Positions 1-14,069 of a stretch of DNA of 64,000 bases are shown piece after piece. Source of the stretch: Patescibacteria group bacterium (GTDB lineage Bacteria > Patescibacteriota > Microgenomatia > Levybacterales > UBA12049); contig JBBTXS010000001.1 in the NCBI GenBank assembly GCA_038062115.1, positions 10,607 through 74,606 on the forward strand, given 5' to 3'. Under the pieces are notes generated by a model, which made no database searches, had not been told where the DNA came from, and worked only from the letters and a program-made list of their open reading frames with translations. Position 1 is the stretch's first letter; each line of letters starts with the position of its first letter. Both the position numbers and the translations under genes were made by a program.

Positions 1-701
1 GGCAAATGATACTGCGCACGATTGATCTTTTGGAGAACTTGAAGATTAGTCCTATAATTGTAGTAGTGGGGTTTGCGAAGAAATCAGTGACTGATCTTTT
101 GGGACAAAGAGTTGTCTTTGTGGATCAAAAGAAAAGGTTGGGTACTGCCCACGCTGTAAAATGTGCGTTAAAATATTTGCCTAGACATGTAACCGATGTT
201 CTAGTTTTAAATGGAGACGATTCGGCTTTTTACGAGGGGGAAACAATTATAAATCTGATTAAAGTTCACCAAAAGAAAAATACAGAGGTTACATTTCTAA
301 CTATTGAACTTGATAATCCATCCGGACTTGGTAGGATAATAAGGGACGATAAAGAACAACTTCTTGCGATTATCGAGGATAAAGATGCGTCTTTACAGCA
401 GAAAAAAATAGAGGAAATTAACCCAGGATGTTATTTGTTCAAGGTATCTTTTTTACGTAAATATTTAAGAAAAATTAAGAAGAGTAAAACAACAGACGAA
501 TACTATCTTACAAGACTTGTAGATATTGCTGCAGCAAATAATGAAAAGATAGAAACTTTAAGGGGAGGAAAAATCCCGTGGAGAGGGATAAATACGCCTT
601 TGGAATTAAAAGAAGCAGAAAGATTCTATTTTCAGCACTCCACCTCCGAGGAGTCGCTTCGCAACACCTCGGAGGTGACCGAATGGGCTCCTCCGAGGTG
701 A
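1..701 (+). CDS. Sugar-1-phosphate nucleotidylyltransferase domain protein (GlmU N-terminal-domain-like), probably 5'-partial at window edge
   Basis: ORF 6..701 has no in-frame stop before the window edge. It lacks the N-terminal glycine-rich loop expected for this fold and starts in the region equivalent to the first beta-alpha unit. LGTAHA and VLNGDD motifs are typical of NTP-transferase domains. The last ~21 codons (HSTSEESLRNTSEVTEWAPPR) are encoded by a palindromic repeat. Confidence 0.7.
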   Translation, partial: QMILRTIDLLENLKISPIIVVVGFAKKSVTDLLGQRVVFVDQKKRLGTAHAVKCALKYLPRHVTDVLVLNGDDSAFYEGETIINLIKVHQKKNTEVTFLTIELDNPSGLGRIIRDDKEQLLAIIEDKDASLQQKKIEEINPGCYLFKVSFLRKYLRKIKKSKTTDEYYLTRLVDIAAANNEKIETLRGGKIPWRGINTPLELKEAERFYFQHSTSEESLRNTSEVTEWAPPR

Positions 702-712
702 ACATCGGAGGA
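641..712. repeat. GC-rich double-hairpin palindromic element (MITE/REP-like)
   Basis: CACCTCCGAGG (641-651) pairs perfectly with CCTCGGAGGTG (667-677). TCCTCCG (689-695) pairs with CGGAGGA (706-712). The element is GC-rich in AT-rich DNA and sits between two ORFs. Confidence 0.6.
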
Positions 713-1374
713 TGATACTTAGAGTTAATTGTATGTACAGACAGTTTGAAAAAGAAAATTTCTTTGATTTATCAAATTTTGAGTTTAGGGACATTTTCGA
801 TAATGTAAATTTTGTCTGGGAAGCAATACCAAAGATTGAGAACTACATAAATTCCCTTTTTCAAAAAAGAATTCTTGTTGGGAATTATAAAGATAAAAAA
901 AATGTTTTCGTTGGGGAGGGTTCAATTGTTATGAGTGAGGCTCTAATCGATGGTCCTGCGATAATTGGGAAAAATTGTGTGATTGGACATGCTAGTTATT
1001 TAAGGCAAAATTGTTTATTTGGAGATAATGTGCAAATAGGTCATGGGTCGGAGATCAAAAATTCAATATTTTTAAATAACGCTAGGGCAGCGCACCTTAA
1101 TTATATTGGAGATAGCATTATTGGTAATAATGTCAACATTTCAGGAGGAGCAATGGTAGCAAATTACAGGTTGGATAAACAGCCGGTTGGTGTTCACGCT
1201 GGAAATCAATGGATTGAAACTGGTCTTCAAAAATTCGGCGCAATCATTGGAGATAGCTCAAATATTGGAGCAAACGCAGTTCTTAATCCAGGGACAATTT
1301 TAGAAAAAAAAACGATTGTTTATCCTTTAACTTCTGTAAAAGGAGTACACAAAAATAATGATACCATCAGATAA
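712..1374 (+). CDS. Left-handed beta-helix (hexapeptide-repeat) acyltransferase, GlmU C-terminal-domain-like
   Basis: The ORF shows repeated hexapeptide pattern (IGKNCVIGHASYL, GDNVQIGHGSEI, IGDSIIGNNVNISGG, IGDSSNIGANAVL). A GAGGTG SD-like sequence lies 11 nt upstream of ATG 712. ATG 733 is an alternative start. Confidence 0.75.
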   Translation: MILRVNCMYRQFEKENFFDLSNFEFRDIFDNVNFVWEAIPKIENYINSLFQKRILVGNYKDKKNVFVGEGSIVMSEALIDGPAIIGKNCVIGHASYLRQNCLFGDNVQIGHGSEIKNSIFLNNARAAHLNYIGDSIIGNNVNISGGAMVANYRLDKQPVGVHAGNQWIETGLQKFGAIIGDSSNIGANAVLNPGTILEKKTIVYPLTSVKGVHKNNDTIR

Positions 1375-2050
1375 TAATTTTTCAGCCGTTATTCTCTTTG
1401 ATATTGATTATACCTTGTTTGCTGCAAACAAATTTAGAAGAAAAATATTTAAGGCAATAAAAAAAAATATAGCATACAATAAAATCAACAATATAGACAG
1501 GGTGTTAAAAAATGCATATATTGCTTCTAGAGAAGATACTGGTTATTTTAGGCTTAGGCCATTTTTAGAAAATCTTTCGACAAAATTAAAAACAAAAGTT
1601 TCCTCCGACGCTTTGGAAAAAACAATCCTTAAAGAAAACATTATTACAGGGAATCTTTACGAAGGAGCAAAGAAAGTTTTGCATACGCTTTCAAAAAATA
1701 AGCTACTTAGAATTGGTATATTCTCTGGAGGAGAGTATGCGTTTCAAAGGAAAAAAATTAGACAAATTGAAGACTTTCTGCACAAGGAACATATTCACAT
1801 TTTTACTTCTAGAAAACGTAAAGAATTACCTTACATTGTTGATAAATATAAAAAATACAAGTTATACATTGTCGATGACGTTCTTGAAGTATTGCATACA
1901 GCTAAATCACTTAATAAAAATATATTTACCATCTGGATTAAGAGAAGAAGATTTGCAAAAGAAAAGGAAATAATCCCTGGTTTTACGCCAGAGGCAATAA
2001 TAAAAAATTTAAGAGAGGTTATTGATATTGTAGGGAGGAATTTTCAATGA
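1358..2050 (+). CDS. HAD-superfamily hydrolase (putative)
   Basis: The N-terminal motif ILFDIDYTLF (DxDxT) and the C-terminal VDD motif fit a HAD hydrolase. It overlaps the upstream gene by 17 nt. Confidence 0.55.
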   Translation: MIPSDNNFSAVILFDIDYTLFAANKFRRKIFKAIKKNIAYNKINNIDRVLKNAYIASREDTGYFRLRPFLENLSTKLKTKVSSDALEKTILKENIITGNLYEGAKKVLHTLSKNKLLRIGIFSGGEYAFQRKKIRQIEDFLHKEHIHIFTSRKRKELPYIVDKYKKYKLYIVDDVLEVLHTAKSLNKNIFTIWIKRRRFAKEKEIIPGFTPEAIIKNLREVIDIVGRNFQ

Positions 2051-2060
2051 TCAAATTATT

Positions 2061-2085
2061 CTACAAATCCACCCCAAGGGTGGAC
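2061..2085. repeat. 25-nt repeat containing a 7-bp hairpin (copy 1 of 2)
   Basis: CTACAAATCCACCCCAAGGGTGGAC is identical to 10604-10628. The stem is TCCACCC/GGGTGGA at 2068-2084. It lies 11 nt after a stop codon. Confidence 0.7.
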
Positions 2086-2159
2086 GTTATTCACTTTGCT
2101 GAGTCTGCTTCTTGACTGATTGGTTGTTTTGTGATTAGCTTAAATAGGGTCAGCAATTT

Positions 2160-2588
2160 ATGTTTGATTCGTTTGCTATCAAATACCAAAAATTTGCTCC
2201 AGTTTTTTTACGTATAGGTTTAGCTTTATTATTTGTTCTATTTGGACTTCAAAAGTTATTGCATCCTAGTCAAACTACTGCTGAGATACAGTTGCTCACA
2301 AATTTCGAATTGGTAGATGCTGCGGCTTTAAATTTTTATTTGGGACTCCTTGAGCTTTTCGTTGCAGCATCTTTTTTACTTGGTTTCAAAGTAAGATTAT
2401 TTGCTCTAATTTCTTTTTTACTAGTTGCCATGTTCTTCCTTTCGTTTCTGAGTCGGTATGGCGTATCACTAAATCCAGATTTGTATCGCGATGTAGGATT
2501 GGTAGGGGCATCAATAGCATTATTCTTACTAGGAGCAGGACCTCTAAGCCTTGATAACCCTTCCAATAAAAAAGAAAGTAATGAATAA
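2160..2588 (+). CDS. DoxX-family membrane protein
   Basis: A small protein of four predicted TM helices. The N-terminal pattern FLRIGLALLFVLFGLQKL resembles DoxX/DoxD-like proteins. Confidence 0.55.
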   Translation: MFDSFAIKYQKFAPVFLRIGLALLFVLFGLQKLLHPSQTTAEIQLLTNFELVDAAALNFYLGLLELFVAASFLLGFKVRLFALISFLLVAMFFLSFLSRYGVSLNPDLYRDVGLVGASIALFLLGAGPLSLDNPSNKKESNE

Positions 2589-3060
2589 ATATCTTGGTTT
2601 AGCTTTGTTTAGTGTATTCTTACTGGCAAGTGGATTTATCTATCAGGCATACTATCGTCCCGCTAGTATTGAAAGGATTAAGTCTACGGGTAAAGCAGTA
2701 TTTATTAACATGCGGGTCATAAAGAATCATTGGAAGTGGGATCCTGATACAATAAAAGTTAAACCTGGAGATAAGATAGTCCTAAACATTTATAACGAAG
2801 ACACATATGACCATGGGTTTGCAATAGATGTATTCGGGGTTAATCGCAGGTTATTTCCCCAAACTACAACTGTGGTTGAATTTACGCCTTCTTTGGTTGG
2901 CAAATTTAATTTTTATTGTTCAGTGCCCTGCGGAGAGGGTCATTATGACCAAATTGGTACTCTTATTGTGGGAGACGGACATGTTAGATCAGGTATATAT
3001 CCTAATAAGAACTTTGCATGTAGTACGACTAATAAAATGGTGCATTCTATGTCATTCTGA
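2581..3060 (+). CDS. Membrane-anchored cupredoxin-like copper-binding domain protein
   Basis: An N-terminal TM anchor is followed by a pattern typical of cupredoxin_1-type domains found next to Cu-ATPases: WDPDTIKVKPGDKIVLNIYNEDTYDHGF ... FYCSVPCGEGHYDQIGTLIV. The preferred start is ATG 2581 (the ORF track gives 2551). The C-terminal tail runs into a repeat element. Confidence 0.65.
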   Translation: MNKYLGLALFSVFLLASGFIYQAYYRPASIERIKSTGKAVFINMRVIKNHWKWDPDTIKVKPGDKIVLNIYNEDTYDHGFAIDVFGVNRRLFPQTTTVVEFTPSLVGKFNFYCSVPCGEGHYDQIGTLIVGDGHVRSGIYPNKNFACSTTNKMVHSMSF

Positions 3061-3101
3061 ACTTGATTCAGAATCTAGATTCCCGCTTTTGCGGGAATGA
3101 C
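3051..3101. repeat. GTCAT...ATGAC palindromic MITE-like element (short, two hairpins)
   Basis: Sequence: GTCATTCTGAA-CTTGA-TTCAGAATC-TAG-ATTCCCGC-TTTT-GCGGGAATGAC. The termini GTCATTC and GAATGAC are inverted. It sits between the cupredoxin gene and copA and supplies a spurious ATG at 3097. Confidence 0.65.
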
Positions 3102-3114
3102 GAAGGGTGTTTTT

Positions 3115-5571
3115 ATGAAAGAAAAGCCCCAATTTACTCAAAAACTCTATAGAATTCAGGGAATGCACTGCGCTTCCTGTGCTGTTTTAATTAACACAGT
3201 TCTACAAAAACAAAAAGGAGTAGAGTCTGTAAATGCAAGTTTTGGAGCTGAAAAACTTTCTATTTCATTTGATCCAAATGTTATACCCGAGGAAAAAGTA
3301 TTGGGTTTTGGTAAATCTTTGGGATACTCTTTTGTGTCGGAGGAGTCAAGAACTGAGGATGAATTTAAAAAAGAAAGGGATGCTCATATCAGAGAGCTTA
3401 GAAATAGAACTATTGTAAGTTTTCTTCTTTCAAGCCCTATTATTGCATATTATATGGCAGTTCACATGTTTAATCTTAAGCATGTCCACGCAATAATGGT
3501 TGGAAGTTTATTTATAGATTTAAACTGGATTTATTTACTAATGACAATTCCAGTTCAATTTTGGGTGGGATGGATTTTTTATAGAAGCGCCTGGACGGCA
3601 TTTAAGGTTGGTTCAACCTCGATGGACACGCTTGTAGTTTTGGGAACGAGTGCTGCATTTTTTTATAGTCTTATTGGCTTTCTGTTTTCAACTACCTATG
3701 GAAAGCTACAAACACTCTGGATAGGACTTGATCATCCTTTTTGGGAGTCATCTGCTGCTTTAATGTCGTTTTTAATTATGGGCCGCTTCCTTGAAGCTGT
3801 GTCTCGTGGAAAAGTTTCTGAGGCAGTAAGTAAATTGTTGCAGCTTGCACCAGAAAAAGCAATTTTACTTAAAAACGGTGAGGAAAAAGAAATTCTGGCG
3901 AGCGACTTAAAAAAAGACGATATATTTATTGTTAAGCCTGGAAGTAAAATTCCAACAGATGGAATAATTATTAAAGGCGAATCGGCATTGGACGAAAAAA
4001 TAGTAACAGGAGAATCAATGCCAGTCAATAAAAAAGTAAACGACGAAGTAATTGGGGGTACAGTAAATTCGTATGGATTGCTTCACTGTAAAGCAACTAA
4101 AGTTGGAAGCGAGACTTTACTACACCAAATAGTTAGAATGGTTCGCGAGGCTCAAGCAACAAGAGCACCGCTTCAACGCGTTGCAGACTGGATATCCGAA
4201 CGATTTGTGCCAACAGTTATAGTTTTAAGCCTTATCTCCTTTAACTATTGGTATTTTATAAAAGCAGACGGTTTTACTCCATCGCTTCTTTTTATGGTTG
4301 CAGCACTTATTATTTCTTGTCCATGTGCTTTGGGATTAGCAACTCCTATTGCTACTATGGTTGGTACAGCAAAAGGCGCTGAGTCTGGAATATTAATTAA
4401 AGGCGGAGAGGCTTTAGAAAAAGCGCATAAGATTACAGCGGTTGCGTTCGATAAGACAGGAACTTTAACAAAGGGAGAACCAGCTGTGACAGACGTCATT
4501 GCAATTAATTCCTCTGTCATTGCGAGGAGCGAAGCGACGAAGCAATCTCACGAGATTGCCACGGGTTCTTCGAGCCCTCGCAATGACATATTGAGGCTTG
4601 CTGCAGTTGCCGAGAGAGGTTCGGAACACCCCCTCGCTCAAGCTGTAGTTAAAAAAGCAAAAGAACTAAATTTAGAAGTTCCGGAGCCTGAAAACTTTAA
4701 AACAATTTCAGGGATGGGAGTTTCATCAGACTATAAAGGGAAACAAATTATGGTTGGGAATCAGCTTTTTATGGAGAAAGAAAGCATCAATATAAACGAG
4801 ATTGCTTCTGAGGTAAATAGACTTAGAGCTGAGGCAAAAACTGTGGTCTATGTTGCGTATGATAAAAAAGTTATTGGATGTGTTGCCCTTGCCGATACGC
4901 TCAAGAAACATTCTATTGCTGCGATAAATGCTCTAAAGAAGAGAAAAAAAGAAATAATTATGATTACTGGCGATAACGAACAGACTGCTCATGCAATTGG
5001 AAAGCAGTTGGGAATAGACAAGGTTTATGCCAATGTGTTGCCTGAGAAAAAAGAAGAACTTATTGAGTCTATTAAGAAAGAGGGTAAGGTAGTTGCTTTT
5101 GTTGGGGATGGGATAAATGATTCGCCAGCACTGGCCAAGAGTGACTTGGGTATTGCTGTTGGGTCTGGTACTGATGTTGCAATAGAGACTGGAGAAATAA
5201 TTCTTGTTCGCGATGATCTTCGAGATGTGGTTACAGCGATTGATCTTTCACAAAAGACAATCTATAAAATCTGGCAAAACTTTTTCTGGGCTTTTGTTTA
5301 TAATATAGTTGCGATTCCTATTGCTGCAGGACTGCATCTGGTATTTACTCGACACAGTGGGATTCCGGCGGGCTGGGTAACTTACCTCGGAGATGTTTAT
5401 TCTCTGATTCCAGTTATTGGCAATGAGGTTTCTTCTATTTGGCTAAATTTGTCCCAATCTGCTTTAAGGCCGGAAATCGCCGGATTTGCCATGGCATTTT
5501 CATCAGTCTCGGTTGTCCTCAACTCCCTTCTCCTTCGCCTCTACAAAAAACCAAAATTCGCGGATTCTTGA
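3115..5571 (+). CDS. copA: Copper-translocating P1B-type ATPase
   Basis: The protein carries an N-terminal HMA domain (GMHCASCA), the CPC motif (SCPCALGLATP), DKTGTLT, the HP motif (SEHPLA), TGDN and GDGINDSPAL. An SD-like AAGGG precedes ATG 3115. The ORF-track start at 3097 lies inside the repeat. Confidence 0.95.
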   Translation: MKEKPQFTQKLYRIQGMHCASCAVLINTVLQKQKGVESVNASFGAEKLSISFDPNVIPEEKVLGFGKSLGYSFVSEESRTEDEFKKERDAHIRELRNRTIVSFLLSSPIIAYYMAVHMFNLKHVHAIMVGSLFIDLNWIYLLMTIPVQFWVGWIFYRSAWTAFKVGSTSMDTLVVLGTSAAFFYSLIGFLFSTTYGKLQTLWIGLDHPFWESSAALMSFLIMGRFLEAVSRGKVSEAVSKLLQLAPEKAILLKNGEEKEILASDLKKDDIFIVKPGSKIPTDGIIIKGESALDEKIVTGESMPVNKKVNDEVIGGTVNSYGLLHCKATKVGSETLLHQIVRMVREAQATRAPLQRVADWISERFVPTVIVLSLISFNYWYFIKADGFTPSLLFMVAALIISCPCALGLATPIATMVGTAKGAESGILIKGGEALEKAHKITAVAFDKTGTLTKGEPAVTDVIAINSSVIARSEATKQSHEIATGSSSPRNDILRLAAVAERGSEHPLAQAVVKKAKELNLEVPEPENFKTISGMGVSSDYKGKQIMVGNQLFMEKESININEIASEVNRLRAEAKTVVYVAYDKKVIGCVALADTLKKHSIAAINALKKRKKEIIMITGDNEQTAHAIGKQLGIDKVYANVLPEKKEELIESIKKEGKVVAFVGDGINDSPALAKSDLGIAVGSGTDVAIETGEIILVRDDLRDVVTAIDLSQKTIYKIWQNFFWAFVYNIVAIPIAAGLHLVFTRHSGIPAGWVTYLGDVYSLIPVIGNEVSSIWLNLSQSALRPEIAGFAMAFSSVSVVLNSLLLRLYKKPKFADS
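4516..4587. repeat. GTCAT...ATGAC palindromic MITE-like element inserted in frame in copA
   Basis: The element is 72 nt (24 codons) with perfect 12-bp terminal inverted repeats GTCATTGCGAGG / CCTCGCAATGAC. An internal hairpin is GCAATCTC-AC-GAGATTGC. It encodes VIARSEATKQSHEIATGSSSPRND. Confidence 0.8.
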
Positions 5572-5611
5572 CAACCATGAGTCACGCCGTGTAGGTTAAC
5601 TGTTTTGTAAC

Positions 5612-5986
5612 ATGATTTTAAAGTCTAAAGACCGAGGAAAGTTTTTATCGCTTTTGCTAGCATTAAGCTTCTTTGGAATATTAGCAAGCGCGCCACAAGC
5701 AGTCGACCCTGATGTGATGTCGAGATTCCATGGTATGTTACCTGTATGGTATAGGTTATGGGTGACAATATACCTAGTTTCACAAATTGTAGTTCTTATC
5801 GGAATATGGAAGCGGAAAAGGTTTGCCGTATACGCATTTTTCCTTTTGAGCGGGATTCAGGTAGTGCTTATTAGTACCGCATTGAAACCAATTTACGATT
5901 CACATATCATTGCTATTGCTGTCTTTGCAATGTGGCAGGGTCTTTGGGTATGGGCAATCAAGCGTAAATGGCATATCTTTATTTAA
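5612..5986 (+). CDS. Hypothetical small membrane protein
   Basis: The ORF has four predicted hydrophobic helices and no motif I recognise. Confidence 0.4.
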   Translation: MILKSKDRGKFLSLLLALSFFGILASAPQAVDPDVMSRFHGMLPVWYRLWVTIYLVSQIVVLIGIWKRKRFAVYAFFLLSGIQVVLISTALKPIYDSHIIAIAVFAMWQGLWVWAIKRKWHIFI

Positions 5987-6174
5987 TAATTATGCATCTT
6001 TTAATAGCTCCTAGGTTTTGGGTTCACTATAGAACTAAAATTAATTTTAGTAAACATAATATGAATTATAGATGTTGTGTTTAAATATCAAAAAGGGTTT
6101 CGCGCAGATTTTGCTGGAGCAAAAATTGTGATGTTGTGTAAAGTTCTATATCATTTGAAAGGAATTTAAAAAAT

Positions 6175-6621
6175 ATGAGTAGTGAAAAATTTACATTATT
6201 ACACGCAGCGGTTTACTTTATGCTTATTAAAGATGGCAAAATACTTCTTGTTAGACGTTTTAATACTGGTTGGCAAGATGGAAAATATAGCCTTATCGCA
6301 GGACATCTTGAGAGGAATGAGACAGTTAAACAGGCAATGATAAGAGAAGCAAAAGAAGAAGCAGGAATTAATCTTAACCCAAAGGATTTACATATTGTAC
6401 ATACCATGCATAGGAAGTCTAAGGATGACCTTGAATATATTGATTTTTTCCTAAGTTGCGATACATGGCAAGGGAAGCCTAGGATAACAGAGCATGATAA
6501 ATGTGACGACATGCAATGGTTTTCTCTTAAAAACCTTCCTGAAGATACATTACGACACATAAGAAAAGCAATAGAAAGCTATTCAAATAAGATTTCATTT
6601 TCCGAGTTGGGTTTTGAATAA
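6175..6621 (+). CDS. NUDIX hydrolase
   Basis: The Nudix box is GHLERNETVKQAMIREAKEEAGI (GX5EX7REUXEEXGU). Confidence 0.85.
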   Translation: MSSEKFTLLHAAVYFMLIKDGKILLVRRFNTGWQDGKYSLIAGHLERNETVKQAMIREAKEEAGINLNPKDLHIVHTMHRKSKDDLEYIDFFLSCDTWQGKPRITEHDKCDDMQWFSLKNLPEDTLRHIRKAIESYSNKISFSELGFE

Positions 6622-6626
6622 TTAAT

Positions 6627-7109
6627 ATGCAAAGAAATATAGCTGTAGCGCTTGAGTGTTTTGTTAAAAAGGATGGAAAATACTTAATGCTTCATAGGAG
6701 TAAGAATAAGAAAATAATGCCAGATGTCTGGATGGCGCCTGGAGGAAAGAGAGAATTTAATGAAAGTTTGTTTGAGGCTGCTAGACGAGAGATTAAAGAG
6801 GAGACAGGACTTGAAATTAAAAATCTTCGAATCAAAGCAACGGGTAATGCGTATCTTAAAGATTTAGATCAAGAACTATATTTTCATTTTATAGTTGGTG
6901 ATTACGCTGGGGGAAAGCTCAAACAAAACTCTGAAGACGGAGAATTTATGTGGTTAACGCCTAAAGAAATATCAAAACTTAACAATCTACTTTCGGAAAT
7001 TCGTGAAGTTATGCCTTATATTTTTACTAATGATGACAAGGTCATTTCTTACAAGGCAGTATACGAAAAAGGAAATAAAATGGTCGACTTCCAAATTGAA
7101 AAACCTTAA
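6627..7109 (+). CDS. NUDIX hydrolase (second, tandem)
   Basis: The Nudix box is PGGKREFNESLFEAARREIKEETGL. Confidence 0.85.
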   Translation: MQRNIAVALECFVKKDGKYLMLHRSKNKKIMPDVWMAPGGKREFNESLFEAARREIKEETGLEIKNLRIKATGNAYLKDLDQELYFHFIVGDYAGGKLKQNSEDGEFMWLTPKEISKLNNLLSEIREVMPYIFTNDDKVISYKAVYEKGNKMVDFQIEKP

Positions 7110-7321
7110 AACCTGAGTCGTGAAATCTTCTCAAACACACTTGCCTTTATATGTTTCATAAATGTCAATTGCGACAACAGCCATACGCAACCTATTCCTA
7201 ATCCGAGGGTTATCGTTTGTAAAACATTTTGGAAAAAGTAACAGTTATTCATGGTTCTAAAACAGATATTAGCAATCTTTAAATAGTTTATCAAGTATCA
7301 ATTTTTTTTATTTTTTGAGGG

Positions 7322-7354
7322 TTGACAAAGAGGATAAAAGAGTTCTACTATAAT
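7322..7354 (+). promoter_or_regulatory. Sigma70-like promoter candidate for copZ operon
   Basis: TTGACA lies at 7322-7327. The -10 candidates are TACTAT (7346-7351, 18-nt spacer) and TATAAT (7349-7354, 21-nt spacer). A T-rich tract lies upstream. The ATG at 7363 has no SD, so the transcript may be leaderless. Confidence 0.4.
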
Positions 7355-7362
7355 TATGTAAG

Positions 7363-7584
7363 ATGCCAATAATTACAAAAAAAGCTCTTAATATAGAAGG
7401 CATGCATTGCAATTCCTGCGCATCGGGGATTCAGCTGGTTTTGCAAAACACAGACGGCGTTTTGAATGCAACTGCCAGTTATGATTCCAAAAAAGGCGAA
7501 GTTGAGTTTGACGAGGAAAAAACGAATTTGGAGAACATTGTTAAGTCAATCGAGCAACTGGGATATAAGGCGACGCCGCAGTAA
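7363..7584 (+). CDS. copZ: Heavy-metal-associated (HMA) copper chaperone
   Basis: A 73-aa protein with the GMHCNSCA metal-binding motif and ferredoxin-like HMA length. Confidence 0.85.
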   Translation: MPIITKKALNIEGMHCNSCASGIQLVLQNTDGVLNATASYDSKKGEVEFDEEKTNLENIVKSIEQLGYKATPQ

Positions 7585-7593
7585 ATGCGCGTT

Positions 7594-7669
7594 GTCATGC
7601 TGAATTTATTTCAGCATCTTGAAATAAGTAAAGGACTGCATCTAGACTCTGAAACAAGTTCAGGGTGAC
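7594..7669. repeat. GTCAT...GTGAC palindromic MITE-like element
   Basis: The termini are GTCATGCTGAA (left) and TTCAGGGTGAC (right), matching 9 of 11 as inverted repeats. Hairpins are ATGCTGAA-TTTA-TTCAGCAT and CTGAA-ACAAG-TTCAG. It is intergenic. Confidence 0.65.
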
Positions 7670-7685
7670 ACAAAGAGGATAAGTT

Positions 7686-8000
7686 ATGAAGTCTTTATTA
7701 AGTTTTTTCTCAACCACTAGTTTGTTGTTATTAACGCTTGCGGAGCCTGCTTTTGCAAATGGAGACAGTCACCCACCAGGAACTCCACACACAGAGGAAG
7801 CAACAAGTATAGATCCCGTAATAGTTGTTGGTATTGCAATAGTTTTGGTAATTGGCGGTTTTATACTTTGGAAATTTGTTCTTCATGGTCCTAAATCATC
7901 TTTACCTAATCAATTATCCTCGTCTGAAAAAACGCCACCTGTTCAGGAAAAAAATGTTTCTCAGAGCAATCTGGGTGATAATCCTCCAAAGAATGGATAG
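7686..8000 (+). CDS. Signal-peptide plus single-TM anchored protein with short His/Pro-rich ectodomain
   Basis: The ORF has a signal-like N-terminus ending AFA-NG, then GDSHPPGTPHTEE, a TM helix and a low-complexity tail. An SD (AGAGGA) lies 7 nt upstream. Confidence 0.5.
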   Translation: MKSLLSFFSTTSLLLLTLAEPAFANGDSHPPGTPHTEEATSIDPVIVVGIAIVLVIGGFILWKFVLHGPKSSLPNQLSSSEKTPPVQEKNVSQSNLGDNPPKNG

Positions 8001-8002
8001 AT

Positions 8003-10072
8003 ATGGATGAGACAACTGCCAATGTCCCTGCGCAAGCTCCTGTAGAGAATAAAGTTCCTGTTGTTCCTGGAAAAAAACATCCACCTTTGTTGTTTCTTAT
8101 TCTGCTTTTCGGTTTAATAGGTATATTTATTTATGGGTTGAGGTTTGTATTTTCTTTAGGTAGCGGGGATGTAGGCTCTGTTCCTTTTCTTCTTTTTGAC
8201 TATACGGTTGGACTTACAATGATTTTTCTTCCCTGCACTCTGCCGCTTGCCTTTGTTATCGTGCCACTTGTGATGGGTAAGTCGTACCAGAAAGGAATTG
8301 GCATGGCTTTGGCATTTGGATTGGGGGTAACTATTACTCTTAGTTTCTATGGGGTGCTTATTGGATTGTTGGGTCAGGCGCTTGGAATCCACCAAGTTGA
8401 GACTGCAAAAAATATTTTGTATGCGGTAGCAGGTCTATTTGCAATTCTTTTTGCTCTGGGAGAGCTTAAGCTTATTCGTTTTGCAGCTCCTGTTTATGGG
8501 GGTGCTGTTCCACAATTTATCATGAAACAAAAAGATATTGCAAAAGCGTTATTTCTTGGTCTTTTTTTGGGAAATGTAGGAGTAGGCTGTCCGAATCCTC
8601 TTTTTAACGCAGTAATTATTCCTCAGATCATTGCTACAGGCGATGCTTTCCAAGGGTGGCTCATTATGTTTGTGCAGGCGCTTGGACGTATCACTCCACT
8701 TTTTATCCTTGCGTTTCTTGCAATTTTGGGGATCAATGCGACTCGATTTCTTGTTCTTCACAAAGATGCGGTTAGTAGGATTACAGCTTGGTCTACAATT
8801 TATATTGGTGGATTTTTGCTTACCCTTGGACTTTTTGGACACGATTGGTGGGTCATCTCGGGAATGCATACTTTTGTAGAGTTTGTGACTCAAGAAAACT
8901 TTGTCACAAATCTTCTTGGGAGCAAGGTCCAAGAACTTGGACATACTCACGGGATTCCAACTGGAGCAGGATTATTCGGCATGCCTATTGCTTTGGGAAC
9001 CCCATTTATCCTTTTTATCTGGATCTTTCCAATGGTTTGGTACTATCTGTTCAAAAAAAAGAGCATCATTACACTTCCTCCCGAGCAGCAAGCGTTTGAG
9101 AAAAGATATACACGTCTTATTGGCTGGTTTTTTGTAGTCGTGTCGCTTTGGCTCATAACGGTTTTTGGATATTTTCTTCCCCATATGTTTGCAGATCATT
9201 GGTCCAAAATGGGGCATGAGGGGGAGGAAATAGATCATATGATGAAAGAGAAGACAGTAGAAAAGCAAGATTTTCATGCAACACTTTCAAGCACTCCATC
9301 GGCAATTCAAGCTGCTAAACCATTTACACTTAAGGTTGTTCTGCATGATAAACGCGGCAGACCAGTTAACGATTTACAGATATCTCATGAAAGAATTTTG
9401 CACGTAATTTTGGTAAGCGAAGACATGGAAGAGTTTAAGCATGTTCATCCAGAAGATGCAAAAAATTATGTAGCAAAAACTGGACAGACTGAATTTGAAA
9501 TTCCTATAACTCTTTCAAAAGCCGGGCGTTACAGAGTTCTGGTTGATGGATCTAGAAAAGGAGTAGGGGAGGTATCCGATCTTGGGTGGCTTGAGGTTGG
9601 AATTGTCGGAGATAGCGTGGGAGAACCAGTTCTTATAAAGAAAGATCGTCGTCTAAATCGAATATTTGGAGAATATGATGTTTCACTAGTGCCGACTCCT
9701 CACAATGCTCTTAGATCAGGAGAGAAAACACAATTAAGCTATTTTATTAGAGATAGAGAAACTGGCAACCCAATCTTTGATATAGAACAATATCTTGGCG
9801 CTGACATGCATCTTGCGATTATGTCTATTGATTTATCTACTATTCTTCATACTCATGGAGCAAGATGGGAGCCAAAGTTGGGGCCAAATCAAGGTGTCGC
9901 GTTTCCAGAGATCCGAGCAAACTACACTTTTCCCTATCCAGGGCTTTGGAAAATCTACGGACAATTCCAGCATAAAGGCAAAGTTGTGACGACTGAGTTT
10001 ATGGTGGAGGTTGCGCCGGGCATAATGGATGCTCAAAACATGGCTCCGCATATGGATGACAATGGGCATTAG
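8003..10072 (+). CDS. Fusion protein: CcdA/DsbD-like thiol-disulfide transporter core plus two tandem His-motif beta-sandwich-like domains
   Basis: The CcdA-like signatures are FLPCTLPL and GVGCPNPLF in TM helices. The C-terminal ~270 aa contain two repeats of the pattern HxxLxS.D...F.H.H (ILHVILVSEDMEEFKHVHPED and MHLAIMSIDLSTILHTHG). Confidence 0.6.
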   Translation: MDETTANVPAQAPVENKVPVVPGKKHPPLLFLILLFGLIGIFIYGLRFVFSLGSGDVGSVPFLLFDYTVGLTMIFLPCTLPLAFVIVPLVMGKSYQKGIGMALAFGLGVTITLSFYGVLIGLLGQALGIHQVETAKNILYAVAGLFAILFALGELKLIRFAAPVYGGAVPQFIMKQKDIAKALFLGLFLGNVGVGCPNPLFNAVIIPQIIATGDAFQGWLIMFVQALGRITPLFILAFLAILGINATRFLVLHKDAVSRITAWSTIYIGGFLLTLGLFGHDWWVISGMHTFVEFVTQENFVTNLLGSKVQELGHTHGIPTGAGLFGMPIALGTPFILFIWIFPMVWYYLFKKKSIITLPPEQQAFEKRYTRLIGWFFVVVSLWLITVFGYFLPHMFADHWSKMGHEGEEIDHMMKEKTVEKQDFHATLSSTPSAIQAAKPFTLKVVLHDKRGRPVNDLQISHERILHVILVSEDMEEFKHVHPEDAKNYVAKTGQTEFEIPITLSKAGRYRVLVDGSRKGVGEVSDLGWLEVGIVGDSVGEPVLIKKDRRLNRIFGEYDVSLVPTPHNALRSGEKTQLSYFIRDRETGNPIFDIEQYLGADMHLAIMSIDLSTILHTHGARWEPKLGPNQGVAFPEIRANYTFPYPGLWKIYGQFQHKGKVVTTEFMVEVAPGIMDAQNMAPHMDDNGH

Positions 10073-10090
10073 TAACGTACCTTACGCACT

Positions 10091-10188
10091 GTCATCCCGA
10101 GCGAAGCCAGGTACCGTCTGGCACCTGGCGAAGCGAGGGATCTCCCGCAACTAGGGTGAGAGAGATTTCTCGACAAGCTCGAAATGAC
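10091..10188. repeat. GTCAT...ATGAC palindromic MITE-like element
   Basis: The element is 98 nt, running GTCATCCCGAGCGAAGC ... CTCGAAATGAC, with an internal stem CCAGGT/ACCTGG. It is GC-rich and intergenic. Confidence 0.65.
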
Positions 10189-10219
10189 AAAGGTTGCGTA
10201 ACATGAGTTAGTAATTATG

Positions 10220-10305
10220 TTATTCTTCGAGCGAGGCTGAAAGCCGAGTCGAGAAGTTCTACCTTCAAGATAGTTCTCGACTCACTTCGTTCGCTCGAAC
10301 AATAA
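10220..10305. repeat. Second-type palindromic MITE-like element
   Basis: The ~17-nt near-perfect terminal inverted repeats are TTATTCTTCGAGCGAGG and (as reverse complement) TTATTGTTCGAGCGAAC. An internal 10-bp stem pairs GAGTCGAGAA (10246-10255) with TTCTCGACTC (10274-10283). Confidence 0.65.
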
Positions 10306-10312
10306 AACTTAT

Positions 10313-10579
10313 ATGGGTAAGAATATTACTATTCAGCTTGTATCCACTCCAGGTTGTACTCATTGCGAGGAGGTACGAAAAGTACTGCATGAAGTGAAAT
10401 CGCAGTATCCGCAAATGCAGATACAAGAACTCGATGCAACAAATCCGGACGGATTAGAACTTGTCGCCAAGCATGGTATTTTGGCAAGCCCTGGAGTTAT
10501 CATTAACGGAGAGCTTTTCGCAACAGGAGGGCTTAATAAAGACAGTTTTATTAAAAAATTAGCCTCTCTAAAAAATTAA
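10313..10579 (+). CDS. Small thioredoxin/glutaredoxin-like protein (CxxC)
   Basis: An 88-aa protein with a PGCTHCEE active-site-like motif near the N-terminus, in the size class of single-domain thioredoxin-fold proteins. Confidence 0.7.
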   Translation: MGKNITIQLVSTPGCTHCEEVRKVLHEVKSQYPQMQIQELDATNPDGLELVAKHGILASPGVIINGELFATGGLNKDSFIKKLASLKN

Positions 10580-10603
10580 CCGCTCATTTCTCCGCAGGTG
10601 TAG

Positions 10604-10645
10604 CTACAAATCCACCCCAAGGGTGGACCGTCCCAAGTGGGGACG
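10604..10645. repeat. 25-nt repeat (copy 2 of 2) plus an adjacent second hairpin
   Basis: 10604-10628 is identical to 2061-2085. Hairpin 1 is at 10611-10627. Hairpin 2 is CGTCCC-AAGTG-GGGACG at 10629-10645. Confidence 0.7.
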
Positions 10646-10677
10646 TTCGTACGACAGAGTTTGTATTTGTATATGGC

Positions 10678-11712: not shown

Positions 11713-11737
11713 TAAACCCTTCATAACTCAAAACAGT

Positions 11738-12805: not shown

Positions 12806-12812
12806 AGTTTAT

Positions 12813-12892
12813 GTCATTGCGAGCGTGAGCGAAGCAATCCCCTTCTTTTTGAGATTGCTTCGTCTCAGGCTTCGCCTGATCCTCGCAATGAC
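12813..12892. repeat. GTCAT...ATGAC palindromic MITE-like element
   Basis: The element is 80 nt with 11-bp perfect terminal inverted repeats GTCATTGCGAG / CTCGCAATGAC. It lies in the ftsW-murG spacer and is read through by the GTG-initiated ORF-track extension. Confidence 0.75.
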
Positions 12893-12914
12893 AATAGAAC
12901 AGTTTAGAGTTTAT

Positions 12915-14069
12915 ATGAAAATAGTAATTGTTGGTGGTCATTTGGCTCCAGCGTTAGCGGCAATAGACAATTTACCTAAAGATACAAAACTTCTGTTTAT
13001 TGGAAGAAAATATACTTTTGAAGGAGACAAAGCTTTGTCTTTGGAGTATAGAGAGATTACTAAACGCAAGGTCCCGTTTACAAATGTCATAAGCGGAAGG
13101 CTTCAGAGAAGGCTCACTCGCCATACAATCCCTTCACTTATAAAAGTTCCATATGGATTCATTCAGTCTTTTTTTATCTTGCAAAAGTTTAAGCCAGATG
13201 TGTTTTTAGGTTTTGGTGGGTATTTATCTTTACCTCTTGGTTTAGCAGCTTTTATTTTAAGAATCCCGATTGTTATTCACGAGCAAACATTAGAAGCAGG
13301 TATTGCGAATAAGATTCTTTCGTTTTTTGCTAAAAAGATCTGTATTTCATGGGAATCATCAAGAAAATTTTTTCCAAAAAATAAAACTGTTCTTATTGGA
13401 AACCCGATACGAAAATTTTCTCTGTCATCCCGACCAAGCCCGAAGGGCGCGTGGAGGAATCTCGGAGATTCCTCGACTCCGTTTCACTTCGCTCGGAATG
13501 ACACCCCTATTATTTACATCACTGGTGGGAGTTCTGGCTCGCACTTTATAAATACACTGGTTGAGGGCTGTATCAAAGAGCTATTGGAAAAGTTCGTCAT
13601 TATTCACCAAACAGGAGATGCGCAAGAATACCGTGACTTTGACCGACTTAACAATCTTAGAGATAGTCTACCATCAAAATTAAAAGCAAGATACTTTCTG
13701 ATAAAATTTGTTGAACCGAAAGACGTTGGATCATGTTTACAAAAAGCGCATTTAGTAGTTTCACGCGCTGGTATAAATACTATAACAGAGCTTATTTTTT
13801 TAAAAAAGCCATCTTTGTTGATTCCTCTGCGTTATTCCCAAAATAACGAACAAATAAAGAATGCCCTTTTTTTAAAAAGCCTAGGGCTTGGGGAAGTTTT
13901 GGAACAAGGCCATTTAAGCTCGCAAAAGTTTTTGCAAAAAGTAATAGAGATGGTTAATAATATAAATAAGTATAAGATTAAAGATAAATCTAATGCTTTA
14001 ATCAATAAAAATGCTGCCCAAAAGATAATTGAAGTCATTCAATATGCTACAAAGAGCAAGAAAAACTAA
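12915..14069 (+). CDS. murG: UDP-GlcNAc:lipid I N-acetylglucosaminyltransferase
   Basis: MKIVIVGGHLAP, HEQT, GNPIR and TGGSSGS motifs of the GT28 MurG fold, plus dcw position, support the call. The start moves to ATG 12915 because the 12825 extension is repeat-encoded. Confidence 0.9.
   Translation: MKIVIVGGHLAPALAAIDNLPKDTKLLFIGRKYTFEGDKALSLEYREITKRKVPFTNVISGRLQRRLTRHTIPSLIKVPYGFIQSFFILQKFKPDVFLGFGGYLSLPLGLAAFILRIPIVIHEQTLEAGIANKILSFFAKKICISWESSRKFFPKNKTVLIGNPIRKFSLSSRPSPKGAWRNLGDSSTPFHFARNDTPIIYITGGSSGSHFINTLVEGCIKELLEKFVIIHQTGDAQEYRDFDRLNNLRDSLPSKLKARYFLIKFVEPKDVGSCLQKAHLVVSRAGINTITELIFLKKPSLLIPLRYSQNNEQIKNALFLKSLGLGEVLEQGHLSSQKFLQKVIEMVNNINKYKIKDKSNALINKNAAQKIIEVIQYATKSKKN
13424..13502. 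repeat. GTCAT...ATGAC palindromic MITE-like element embedded in frame in murG
   Basis: The element runs GTCATCCCGACC ... CTCGGAATGAC with an internal 10-bp palindrome GAGGAATCTC/GAGATTCCTC. It encodes roughly SSRPSPKGAWRNLGDSSTPFHFARND in the interdomain linker. Confidence 0.7.

What the first reader, a model, noticed from the sequence alone, without database searches (positions are those of the whole stretch)
4516..4587. Exact 72-nt (24-codon) palindromic element inserted in frame at the P-domain/N-domain hinge of CopA
The element has perfect 12-bp terminal inverted repeats (GTCATTGCGAGG / CCTCGCAATGAC) and starts on a codon boundary. It adds VIARSEATKQSHEIATGSSSPRND between DKTGTLTKGEPAVTDVIAINSS and ILRLAAVAERGSEHPLA.

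In characterised CopA proteins only a short loop separates the phosphorylation motif region from the LLxLAAxxExxSEHP helix. The insert therefore lies in a surface hinge, and every catalytic motif stays intact.

This parallels the in-frame Rickettsia palindromic elements. I am not aware that it has been described for this kind of genome.
Basis: partly seen in the sequence, partly recalled or inferred. Interest (0 to 1): 0.7.

Follow-up and report, generated by a model that had tools for sequence, protein, structure and literature searches.

The report
Selfish hairpin repeat inside CopA gene
A 72-base hairpin-forming repeat, one copy of a family scattered through this genome and many other bacteria, sits in frame in a copper-pump gene of a Patescibacteria (CPR) bacterium and adds a floppy 24-residue loop; this kind of event is already known from Rickettsia and other bacteria, so it is a clear new example, not a new phenomenon.

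Summary
Positions 4516-4587 hold a 72-nt element with perfect 12-bp terminal inverted repeats. It starts on a codon boundary inside an intact Cu+ P-type ATPase gene (3097-5571) and folds as a long hairpin (z about -6).

It is not unique. The window has three more clear copies, including a second in-frame one in MurG, and two degenerate ones. The same termini occur in at least 120 bacterial species across many phyla.

About 100 of 113 CopA homologues have the canonical 36-38-residue DKTGT-to-SEHP spacing. This protein has 57. Close relatives (about 77-84% nucleotide identity) are either empty or carry different hairpin repeats in the same loop.

The element has the tag, the AT-initial stem and the tags-outward dimer layout of the CGTC/TGTC-tagged REP superfamily (Di Nocera 2013). 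That superfamily includes Rickettsia RPE-4 and RPE-6, and its intragenic dimers encode 20-30 residues. The arm architecture here differs from the four described families.

AlphaFold2 gives low confidence for the insert between well-predicted flanks. The insert lies in the first loop of the N domain, about 10 residues past the P/N hinge.

The CopA gene is a mosaic, so the element probably arrived by homologous recombination.

Verdict: a new member of a known kind, apparently unreported for Patescibacteria. Interest is moderate.

The parts
4516..4587 (+). The 72-nt palindromic element, in frame in CopA. It encodes residues 474-497, VIARSEATKQSHEIATGSSSPRND. With the flanking T4515 and A4588 the inverted repeat is 13 bp and the ends read TGTC...GACA.
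4516..4527 (+). Left terminal inverted repeat GTCATTGCGAGG: tag (T)GTC followed by a stem starting ATTGC.
4576..4587 (+). Right terminal inverted repeat CCTCGCAATGAC, the exact complement of the left one.
4516..4547 (+). Left arm GTCATTGCGAG-GAGCGAAGCGAC-GAAGCAATC. It carries the commonest 12-nt variable segment among the 233 arms parsed from the fetched loci. These 32 nt are identical in the relative L001.
4542..4559 (+). Inner stem-loop GCAATCT-CACG-AGATTGC, the conserved GCAATC/GATTGC core of the family.
3097..5571 (+). Host gene: Cu+-exporting P1B-type ATPase (CopA), 824 codons from the first ATG. The public annotation has 818 aa, which implies a start at 3115. The ORF is intact with all catalytic motifs.
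4370..5250 (+). Approximate recombination tract within CopA that contains the element. Here the window is closer to the element-bearing alleles L001/L004 (80-89%) than to L002 (67-78% in the windows from about 4444 to 4873, rising to 78-85% further on). The 5' 1.2 kb is 79-97% identical to the empty L002 allele (mostly 85% or more).
13424..13502 (+). Second in-frame copy of the superfamily (GTCATCCCGACC...GCTCGGAATGAC) in the MurG inter-domain linker. It reads SSRPSPKGAWRNLGDSSTPFHFARND in a different element frame. It is shared with L004 and absent from L002.
12813..12892 (+). Intergenic copy of the same GTCATTGCGAG family (80 nt) between FtsW and MurG, predicted to fold as a three-way junction. 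In L002 the two genes overlap, so that site is empty.
10091..10188 (+). Intergenic copy (98 nt, GTCATCCCGAGC...GCTCGAAATGAC) between DsbD and a thioredoxin gene. L002 is empty at this site. L004 has a related copy in the same spacer.
10222..10303 (+). Degenerate GC-rich hairpin repeat next to the previous copy. It lacks the GTCAT ends.
636..715 (+). Degenerate GC-rich hairpin repeat (CCTCCGAGG motifs, ends ...GGATGA) that forms the 3' end of ORF 6..701.

Best explanation
Positions 4516-4587 are one copy of a non-autonomous, hairpin-forming dispersed repeat. It belongs to, or is closely allied with, the CGTC/TGTC-tagged REP superfamily. It is built as two inverted arms with the tags facing outward, a REP dimer or REPIN-like layout.

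Shown here:
- It is a repeat family member.
- It is absent from most orthologues and from some of the closest ones.
- It is in frame and free of stop codons.
- The host gene is otherwise intact.
- The same CopA loop has taken up at least five different elements of this kind in closely related lineages.

Inferred:
- The copy is translated as a 24-residue, largely disordered surface loop between strand beta-1 and helix alpha-1 of the nucleotide-binding domain. Its last four residues (PRND) take over the N-terminal cap of the helix.
- Insertions land in many places, and only those that keep the frame, lack stops and fall in a structurally tolerant loop survive selection. The copy persists as a near-neutral passenger.
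- In this genome the copy most likely arrived by homologous recombination of a roughly 0.9-kb CopA tract from a related, already-inserted lineage, and not by a fresh transposition.

How the family originally moves is not known. No target-site duplication is visible and no dedicated transposase was found. My best guess is mobilisation in trans through a single-strand hairpin intermediate, followed by spread through recombination.
For: Repeat family. There are 3 pattern matches in the window against 0 expected. There are 4 clear copies and 2 degenerate ones. These share a common arm, GTCATTGCGAG-var-GAAGCAATC-CAG.

Insertion, not an ancestral loop. The spacing is 57 residues against 36-38 in about 100 of 113 homologues. 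There is a gap against AfCopA and HMA4. L002 and L008 are empty alleles. L002 is also empty at the other three sites.

Permissive loop. The same loop holds a 75-nt element in L001, 60 nt in L004, 78 nt in L006, a single unit in L007 and another hairpin in L009. The dimer inserts measure 72, 75, 60 and 78 nt, all multiples of 3, and none has a stop codon.

Translatable. Two of three frames are open on each strand. The same 24-residue peptide is in frame in unrelated Patescibacteria proteins P0124 and P0123.

Structure. Overall pLDDT is 80. The insert scores 55 then 43, between confident flanks.

Mosaic gene.

Link to the REP superfamily. The flank is [C/T]GTC in 117 of 127 elements. The stem starts with AT, the tail is CCA-like, and the dimer layout matches. 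L006 folds as two canonical REP hairpins. PMC3733652 reports TGTC variants, a predominance of head-to-head (HH) dimers, intragenic dimers of 20-30 residues and no associated transposase.

No RAYT homologue was found in 1.08 Mb of fetched DNA.
Against: Translation of the insert is not shown; there are no proteomic or transcript data.

The arms do not form the 8-9-bp stem with a 4-5-nt loop that defines the four published CGTC families. Membership of that superfamily therefore rests on the tag, the AT-initial stem, the tail and the dimer layout.

Removing the 72 nt leaves a loop 4 residues shorter than canonical, so the event was not a clean insertion into a canonical loop, or the loop has changed since.

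No mobility was observed. The window copies are diverged from one another and no identical copies were seen.

The recombination inference rests on sliding-window identity with six relatives, without a formal breakpoint test.

L004 carries a different subfamily at the identical right junction, which a single ancestral insertion does not explain.
Confidence: 0.85

Rival explanations
1. It is a classical MITE: a deletion derivative of a DDE-transposase insertion sequence with the same terminal inverted repeats, cut and pasted by that transposase.
For: It has perfect 12-13-bp terminal inverted repeats, is small, exists in multiple copies, and its ends read TG...CA when the flanking T and A are included.
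Against: No target-site duplication is visible at any of 7 insertion sites. No longer element with these ends was found in the window or in 1.08 Mb of fetched loci. No gene family recurs next to the elements apart from ABC and SDR genes. The ends are conserved across phyla while the stems vary, which points to recognition of structure plus tag. L006 resolves into two separate REP-type hairpins.
Confidence: 0.07
2. The insert has been co-opted. Either the peptide modulates the ATPase (nucleotide-binding domain dynamics, or a partner or regulatory site), or the RNA/DNA hairpin regulates copA expression. On this reading, recurrence in the same loop reflects positive selection.
For: Several related lineages carry an insert in the same loop. 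The left 32 nt are identical between the window and L001, although the flanking coding DNA is only about 80% identical. The RNA hairpin is strong.
Against: The inserts in the loop belong to different families and encode unrelated peptides of different lengths. Equally close relatives do without any insert. AlphaFold2 predicts a disordered loop. The same repeat is found in unrelated proteins and in intergenic DNA. The conserved left arm is simply the family consensus.
Confidence: 0.08
3. It is an ancestral or locally evolved loop of this CopA clade and not inserted DNA.
For: Loop length at this position varies somewhat (36-41 residues) even among alleles without a GTCAT element.
Against: The segment is a dispersed repeat found elsewhere in the window and in many phyla. 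Its GC content is 57% against 34% for the window. L002, the closest allele over the whole gene, has the canonical loop.
Confidence: 0.01
4. It is an assembly artefact or chimeric join in a metagenome-assembled genome.
For: The source is a MAG, and repeats can cause misjoins.
Against: The reading frame and downstream gene are seamless. An independent assembly from another sample (L001, Logan SRR7550461) has a related element at the same site. The public NCBI protein is 100% identical, insert included. MurG in L004 shares its insert with the window.
Confidence: 0.02
5. The segment is removed or bypassed before or during translation (RNA excision or ribosomal hopping), so the protein lacks the 24 residues.
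For: A stable hairpin with exact terminal complementarity could bring the two junctions together.
Against: All four dimer inserts in this loop are multiples of 3 and free of stops, which would not be required if they were removed. The MurG copy measures 79 nt between its termini, so precise excision would shift the frame. There are no matched take-off and landing codons at the junctions. No such mechanism is known for REP-type repeats (my own knowledge).
Confidence: 0.02

Closest known systems
CGTC-tagged REP superfamily (Di Nocera, De Gregorio, Rocco 2013, BMC Genomics 14:522; PMC3733652)
   Same: [quoted passage not shown] Here it is TGTC, and CGTC in most proteobacterial copies of the same family.
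- The stem begins with AT.
- A short tail follows the stem: CCA in most copies, CTC here.
- Dimers with the tags outward.
- Dispersed and mostly intergenic, with some intragenic dimers that encode 20-30 residues.
- No adjacent transposase gene.
- Presence in several phyla.
   Different: - Each arm here has only a 5-bp ATTGC/GCAAT stem, enclosing a 4-24-nt variable segment that is often itself a mini-hairpin. The published families have an 8-9-bp stem and a 4-5-nt loop.
- The two arms pair with each other into one long hairpin or a three-way junction.
- The sequence GTCATTGCGAG is not found in that paper's text or supplements.
- Patescibacteria were not sampled there.
Rickettsia palindromic elements (RPE; Ogata et al. 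2000 Science 290:347; Ogata et al. 2002 Genome Res 12:808, as cited in PMC10969869)
   Same: Palindromic selfish repeats inserted in frame into unrelated housekeeping genes, apparently compatible with protein fold and function. RPE-4 and RPE-6 were assigned to CGTC-4 and CGTC-1 (PMC3733652).
   Different: RPE-1-type elements are about 150 bp and encode a conserved peptide. The host is an alphaproteobacterial endosymbiont. Sequence similarity to RPE consensus sequences was not tested here.
REPINs and RAYT transposases (REP doublets forming hairpins; the GTAG-tagged REP families as summarised in PMC3733652)
   Same: Two inverted REP-like units form one long hairpin. The element is non-autonomous and present in many copies.
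   Different: REPINs carry a GTAG tag and are associated with a RAYT gene flanked by REPs. Here the tag is TGTC/CGTC, and no RAYT or TIRYT homologue was found in the window or in 1.08 Mb of element-bearing loci.
Bacterial MITEs that make in-frame fusions (ERIC, BOX, Coxiella QMITE1, Anabaena MITEs; reviewed in PMC10969869; PMC5896051)
   Same: Small elements with terminal inverted repeats that can sit inside ORFs and add peptide segments.
   Different: Those elements are larger (about 100-400 bp), usually have target-site duplications, and have identifiable or presumed parent insertion sequences.

Membership tests
CGTC-tagged REP superfamily (PMC3733652) | Unpaired terminal tetranucleotide tag CGTC (variants TGTC, CCTC) | tested here: met
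   All 7 elements inspected in Patescibacteria loci read T|GTCAT...ATGAC|A. Among 127 family copies the 5' flank is C or T in 117. In this dimer the two tags pair with each other and are not left unpaired.
CGTC-tagged REP superfamily (PMC3733652) | Stem of 8-9 bp starting with A-T, T-A pairs, and a loop of 4-5 nt, within each unit | tested here: not met
   The arms start with AT (ATTGC...), but each arm has only a 5-bp ATTGC/GCAAT stem around a 12-14-nt segment in this copy, and 4-24 nt across the family. The L006 allele in the same CopA loop does meet the criterion (ATCCTGAAC-TTG-GTTCAGGAT).
CGTC-tagged REP superfamily (PMC3733652) | Three-base tail after the stem, consensus CCA | tested here: inconclusive
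   Most family copies have GCAAT-CCA(G). The CopA copy has GCAAT-CTC.
CGTC-tagged REP superfamily (PMC3733652) | Units predominantly arranged as inverted dimers; intragenic dimers encode 20-30 residues | tested here: met
   The CopA copy has two inverted arms with the tags outward and encodes 24 residues. This is the same layout as the published examples, such as VIPAKAGI...IPAFAGMT.
CGTC-tagged REP superfamily (PMC3733652) | No dedicated transposase gene flanked by the repeats | tested here: met
   tblastn with six RAYT/TIRYT sequences found nothing at E<=1e-3 in 130 loci totalling 1.08 Mb. No gene recurs next to the elements apart from ABC and SDR genes. Whole genomes were not searched.
Rickettsia palindromic elements | Palindromic repeat inserted in frame in functional genes, with an intact host ORF | tested here: met
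Rickettsia palindromic elements | Sequence homology to an RPE family consensus and residence in Rickettsia | not tested
   No RPE consensus sequence was available for comparison. The host is a Patescibacteria MAG. The link is only through the shared CGTC/TGTC tag reported in PMC3733652.
REPIN/RAYT system | GTAG-tagged REP doublet plus a cognate RAYT gene flanked by REPs | tested here: not met
   The tag is TGTC, not GTAG. No RAYT homologue was found in the fetched DNA.
MITE | Terminal inverted repeats together with a target-site duplication and a related autonomous insertion sequence | tested here: not met
   Terminal inverted repeats are present. No duplication is seen at the CopA, MurG or 10091 copies. 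Only copy 12813 has an imperfect direct repeat of about 20 nt nearby. No longer element with these ends was found.
P1B-type Cu+ ATPase (CopA), host gene | HMA domain, CPC in the membrane helix, DKTGT, SEHP, TGDN and GDGxNDxP motifs | tested here: met
   Pfam hits HMA, E1-E2_ATPase and Hydrolase. PDB 3j09 matches at E 1e-167.

The most novel reading that the evidence does not exclude
TGTC-tagged hairpin repeats are currently mobile in these roughly 1-Mb Patescibacteria genomes without any dedicated transposase. They home repeatedly to the same few nucleotides of the CopA N-domain loop, or are selected there. At least three different families share the same loop and two share the identical right junction. 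On this reading the loop is a genuine insertion hot spot or a site of adaptive peptide or RNA-hairpin acquisition. Comparing element-rich genomes (L004-like) with element-poor sisters (L002-like) from the same sample could then reveal the long-sought mobilising activity of CGTC-type REPs.
Probability: 0.12. Interest if true: 0.7.

Novelty: new member of a known kind. Interest (0 to 1): 0.4.

Why it matters
This extends protein-coding palindromic repeats, first seen in Rickettsia and later catalogued as intragenic REPs in several phyla, to the Patescibacteria (CPR). I found no report of them there.

It is an unusually clean natural experiment. Close relatives carry empty, differently filled and recombinant alleles of one surface loop of a well-understood enzyme. 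This shows how selection filters selfish-DNA insertions down to frame-preserving ones in tolerant loops, and how recombination then spreads them.

It is also a practical warning for annotation. The peptides VIARSEATKQS, SLRGAKRRSN, HCEERSDEAI, ...LAMT and ...RND are translations of a repeat found across many bacterial phyla. They create spurious ORFs and artificial 'lineage-specific inserts'.

The arm of the repeat is conserved from Bradyrhizobium to CPR with no known mobilising enzyme. That remains an open question, and small CPR genomes could help to narrow it down.

Tried and rejected
- Rfam: no family at gathering score in the window, and only chance-level hits around the element.
- Literature search by sequence strings or peptide strings returned only unrelated primer matches.
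- Literature searches for MITE, REP or palindromic elements in Patescibacteria/CPR found nothing relevant.
- The 28-residue peptide was too short for the search for homologous proteins. A 48-residue concatenation of the two open frames found nothing, because the word index gave only 14 candidates. That search was wasted.
- A full HMMER scan with 30 residues gave 5 hits, two of them real long proteins.
- tRNA or tmRNA origin: no.
- A RAYT/TIRYT search and a search for recurrent neighbouring genes were both negative.
- The hairpin at 46138-46208, flagged by a generic scan, is AT-rich and unrelated.
- Intein, self-splicing intron, integron attC site and intrinsic terminator were considered from the sequence and dismissed. 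The element is 24 residues with no intein blocks. At 72 nt it is too small for an intron. Its ends do not fit the attC R''/R' consensus. No T-run follows the hairpin.
- A neighbour-joining tree of CopA was not decisive on its own, because the gene is a mosaic.
- I could not see Figure 2 of PMC3733652, which shows the consensus sequences. The statement that this family is not among the four CGTC families rests on the text, on Table 1 and on the listed peptides.
Full report
**1. The observation**

Positions 4516-4587 read GTCATTGCGAGGAGCGAAGCGACGAAGCAATCTCACGAGATTGCCACGGGTTCTTCGAGCCCTCGCAATGAC. The first and last 12 bases are exact reverse complements. The complementarity extends one more base on each side (T4515, A4588).

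The segment starts on a codon boundary of the ORF 3097-5571. It is translated as VIARSEATKQSHEIATGSSSPRND, residues 474-497.

The whole segment folds into one long interrupted hairpin. As RNA the energy is -35.9 kcal/mol (z -5.9) and as DNA -22.7 kcal/mol (z -6.2). None of 200 shuffles did as well.

It is a GC island: 57% in a window that averages 34%.

**2. The host gene**

The ORF is a Cu+-exporting P1B ATPase.
- Pfam finds HMA, E1-E2_ATPase and Hydrolase domains.
- The best solved relatives are plant HMA4 and Archaeoglobus fulgidus CopA, at E 1e-168 and 1e-167.
- CPC, DKTGT, SEHP, TGDN and GDGINDSP are all present.
- A 100% identical protein is annotated in NCBI from a 'Patescibacteria group bacterium' MAG.

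In the alignment to AfCopA the insert falls in a 21-residue gap between ...VTDLVPLNGD and ERELLRLAAIAE.

**3. Is it an insertion?**

I measured the distance from DKTGT to SEHP in the 113 best homologues that have both motifs. It is 36-38 residues in about 100 of them and 57 here. Every longer loop belongs to the closest clade, with at least 64% protein identity.

Nucleotide sequences of the relatives were fetched with the look-up of encoding contigs. They show:
- L002 and L008 (84% and 79% nucleotide identity to the window gene) have the canonical loop and no element.
- L001 has a 75-nt element at the same site. Its left 32 nt are identical to ours and its right half differs.
- L004 has a 60-nt element of another subfamily (GTCATTCTGAGC...CTCAGGATGAC) with exactly the same right junction (ATGAC|ATTTTGAG).
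- L006 has a 78-nt element (GTCATCCTGAAC...GTTCAGCATGAC) at a slightly different point in the same loop.
- L007 has a single unit in the opposite orientation.
- L009 has yet another hairpin, flanked by AT-rich repeats.

The four dimer inserts measure 72, 75, 60 and 78 nt. All are multiples of three and all lack stop codons.

So the loop is a place where such elements are repeatedly found.

**4. It is a dispersed repeat**

The degenerate pattern GTCATYSCGA...TCGSRATGAC matches three times in the window against zero in shuffles. A scan allowing two arm mismatches finds four copies:
- 4516-4587, in CopA.
- 10091-10188, intergenic between DsbD and a thioredoxin gene.
- 12813-12892, intergenic between FtsW and MurG.
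- 13424-13502, inside MurG, read as SSRPSPKGAWRNLGDSSTPFHFARND in a different element frame.

Two further GC-rich hairpins (636-715 and 10222-10303) look like degenerate relatives.

The syntenic 22-kb locus L002 has none of these. Its FtsW and MurG genes overlap, its DsbD-thioredoxin spacer is 30 nt, and its MurG linker is 7 residues shorter. L004 has at least six elements and shares the MurG insert.

**5. Breadth of the family**

The loci come from Bradyrhizobium and many other Alphaproteobacteria, Gamma- and Deltaproteobacteria, Pedobacter, Mucilaginibacter and Flavobacterium, Chloroflexi, Planctomycetota, Microcoleus, Zixibacteria, Rickettsiales, Coxiellaceae, Berkelbacteria and other Patescibacteria.

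The 127 extracted copies share one architecture:
- Outer stem GTCATTGCGAG / CTCGCAATGAC.
- A variable segment in each arm. It is most often CGNAGC or GAGCGAAGCGAC, and sometimes a clean mini-hairpin such as GCCCCAAAGGGGCC.
- A conserved GAAGCAATC-CAG / CTG-GATTGCTTC inner stem.
- A free loop.

When both arms carry the 6-nt segment, the two are complementary in 13 of 19 elements, against 5.6 expected from shuffling. Most elements, however, are heterodimers of unlike arms.

The base before GTC is C (88 copies) or T (31 copies), together 117-119 of 127. The ends therefore read CGTC or TGTC.

**6. What is known**

Di Nocera, De Gregorio and Rocco (2013, PMC3733652) defined two REP superfamilies, tagged GTAG or CGTC. 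For the CGTC type they report:
[quoted passage not shown] - Loops are 4-5 nt.
- The tail is CCA.
- Head-to-head (HH) dimers predominate.
- The repeats occur in five phyla.
- There is no associated transposase.
- R. conorii RPE-6 and RPE-4 are CGTC-1 and CGTC-4.

Our element shares the tag, the AT-initial stem, the tail position, the tags-outward dimer layout, the 24-residue coding size and the lack of a nearby transposase.

It differs in that each arm has only a 5-bp ATTGC/GCAAT stem around a long variable segment. The arms pair with each other and do not fold separately.

The L006 allele in the same CopA loop does fold as two textbook units, TGTC-ATCCTGAAC-TTG-GTTCAGGAT-CTT. This ties the Patescibacteria elements to the published superfamily.

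The string GTCATTGCGAG does not occur in that paper or its supplements, and I could not see its Figure 2. Rfam has no matching family. I found no paper describing such repeats in Patescibacteria.

**7. Mobilisation**

No target-site duplication is visible at the CopA, MurG or 10091 copies. Only copy 12813 is flanked by an imperfect direct repeat of about 20 nt.

tblastn with six RAYT/TIRYT sequences, taken from the paper's supplement, found nothing in 1.08 Mb of element-bearing DNA including the window. The only protein families that recur near the elements are ABC ATPases and short-chain dehydrogenases, which are chance neighbours.

The mechanism of movement therefore remains unknown, as for published CGTC REPs.

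**8. How this copy got here**

A sliding-window comparison of the CopA coding sequences shows that the window gene is a mosaic.
- Positions 3097 to about 4300 are 79-97% identical to the empty L002 allele (mostly 85% or more).
- From about 4370 to 5250, which includes the element, identity to L002 is 67-78% in the windows from about 4444 to 4873 and 78-85% further on. L001 and L004 are the closest there, at 80-89%.
- The last 250 nt are again L002-like.

Over the whole gene the window pairs with L002 (84%) and L001 pairs with L004 (83%).

The simplest reading is that a tract of about 0.9 kb carrying the element was imported by homologous recombination from an already-inserted relative. This is an inference; no formal breakpoint test was run.

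It also means that the window and L001 copies are probably the same ancient insertion. They are 84% identical over aligned columns, like their flanks.

The L004 copy is of a different subfamily at the same junction. It remains unexplained: either an independent hit at a hot spot, or conversion by another copy.

**9. Consequence for the protein**

AlphaFold2 was run with a 69-sequence alignment. It gave mean pLDDT 80 and pTM 0.76.
- A confident strand is predicted at residues 458-469, and a confident helix at 494-506 (the ...PRND-ILRLAAVAER helix).
- Confidence drops to 55 over 471-480 and 43 over 481-490. Residues 482-491 are below 50.

The insert is thus predicted to be a floppy excursion between the first strand and first helix of the nucleotide-binding domain. 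Its last four residues cap the helix.

By alignment to AfCopA, and from my recollection of the domain limits (N domain from about residue 435), this is about 10 residues after the P/N hinge and not the hinge itself.

Removing the 72 nt would leave the loop four residues shorter than canonical. The element now supplies residues that the native loop once did.

**10. Translation**

Two of three frames are open on each strand of the element. The third frame ends in the TGA of ATGAC.

A full HMMER scan of 1.84 billion representatives with the 30-residue stretch found five proteins. Three are spurious ORFs across tandem repeats.

The other two are long proteins:
- P0124, 458 residues, is an NCBI hypothetical protein of a Patescibacteria bacterium. 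It carries VIARSEATKQSPEIATGSASPRDD in frame.
- P0123, 496 residues, carries LVIASEAKQSNEIATGSGNPRND in frame, twice.

The frame and stop constraints on all inserts argue that they are translated. In addition, the MurG copy is 79 nt between its termini, so precise removal would break the frame. Direct evidence is still lacking.

**11. Verdict**

The element is a copy of a widespread CGTC/TGTC-tagged REP-like palindromic repeat, carried in frame in a tolerant loop of CopA.

It is a new member, in a new host phylum and with an atypical arm architecture, of a known kind of event. The points of added interest are:
- the repeated occupation of one loop by different elements in sister lineages;
- the evidence that recombination moved the filled allele;
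- the conservation of the repeat arm across many phyla without a known mobilising enzyme.

Noticed in passing
window 13424-13502 (MurG ORF, start 12915, end 14069): A second in-frame palindromic element of the same superfamily sits in the MurG inter-domain linker. It is read in a different element frame (SSRPSPKGAWRNLGDSSTPFHFARND). L004 shares it, with 21 extra nt in the loop. L002 lacks it.
   Followed up: yes
window 3097-5571: The CopA gene is a mosaic. The 5' 1.2 kb and the last 250 nt are L002-like (mostly 85-97% and 77-89%). The region from about 4370 to 5250 is L001/L004-like. This suggests allelic recombination between related Patescibacteria lineages.
   Followed up: partly
window 636-715: A GC-rich hairpin repeat (CCTCCGAGG motifs, DNA fold z -5.0) forms the last ~22 codons of the nucleotidyl-transferase ORF 6..701 (tail ...QHSTSEESLRNTSEVTEWAPPR). 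The L002 orthologue instead overlaps the next gene.
   Followed up: partly
window 10222-10303: A degenerate hairpin repeat (ATTCTTCGAGCG...CGCTCGAACAAT, three-way junction fold, z -4.8) lies directly next to copy 10091-10188, upstream of the thioredoxin gene.
   Followed up: partly
window 12790-12925: Copy 12813-12892 is flanked by an imperfect direct repeat of about 20 nt (AATAGTTCATAGAGTTTAT ... AATAGAACAGTTTAGAGTTTAT) that includes the FtsW stop and the region just upstream of the MurG start. No comparable repeat flanks the other copies.
   Followed up: no
window 1-14000 versus 14000-64000: All six GC-rich hairpin elements lie in the first 14 kb (the copper-homeostasis and dcw cell-wall genes). 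None was found in the remaining 50 kb.
   Followed up: no
L007 6068-6232, L009 9330-9527, L002 17890-17940, L004 17420-17460: A separate AT-rich repeat (AATTCAAAATTCAAAAT / TTTCAATTTGAAATTTGAAA, peptide NSKFKIQN) recurs in the same CopA loop of several relatives and next to the hairpin elements in intergenic DNA. It may mark preferred target DNA or be another repeat family.
   Followed up: no
L004 20368-20547: The FtsW-MurG spacer of L004 holds a cluster of nested or adjacent units, with several TGTCAT heads and GGATGACA ends. This shows local pile-up of different subfamilies.
   Followed up: no
window 5347-5466 (CopA residues about 751-790): Compared with AfCopA, the protein has about 30 extra residues between the last two membrane helices. 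The segment is conserved across the Patescibacteria homologues (A1 consensus), so it is a clade feature and not a repeat insertion.
   Followed up: partly
P0121, P0122, P0125: Public protein sets contain ORFs that are nothing but translated tandem arrays of these repeats (VIARSEATKQS......LAMT, HCE...). These are annotation artefacts caused by the element family.
   Followed up: no
window 4494-4504: The native codons just upstream of the element (GAC GTC ATT GCA ATT, residues DVIAI) happen to read CGTCATTGCAAT. This resembles a tag plus the start of a stem of the repeat. It may be coincidence or a homology patch that favoured insertion or conversion.
   Followed up: no
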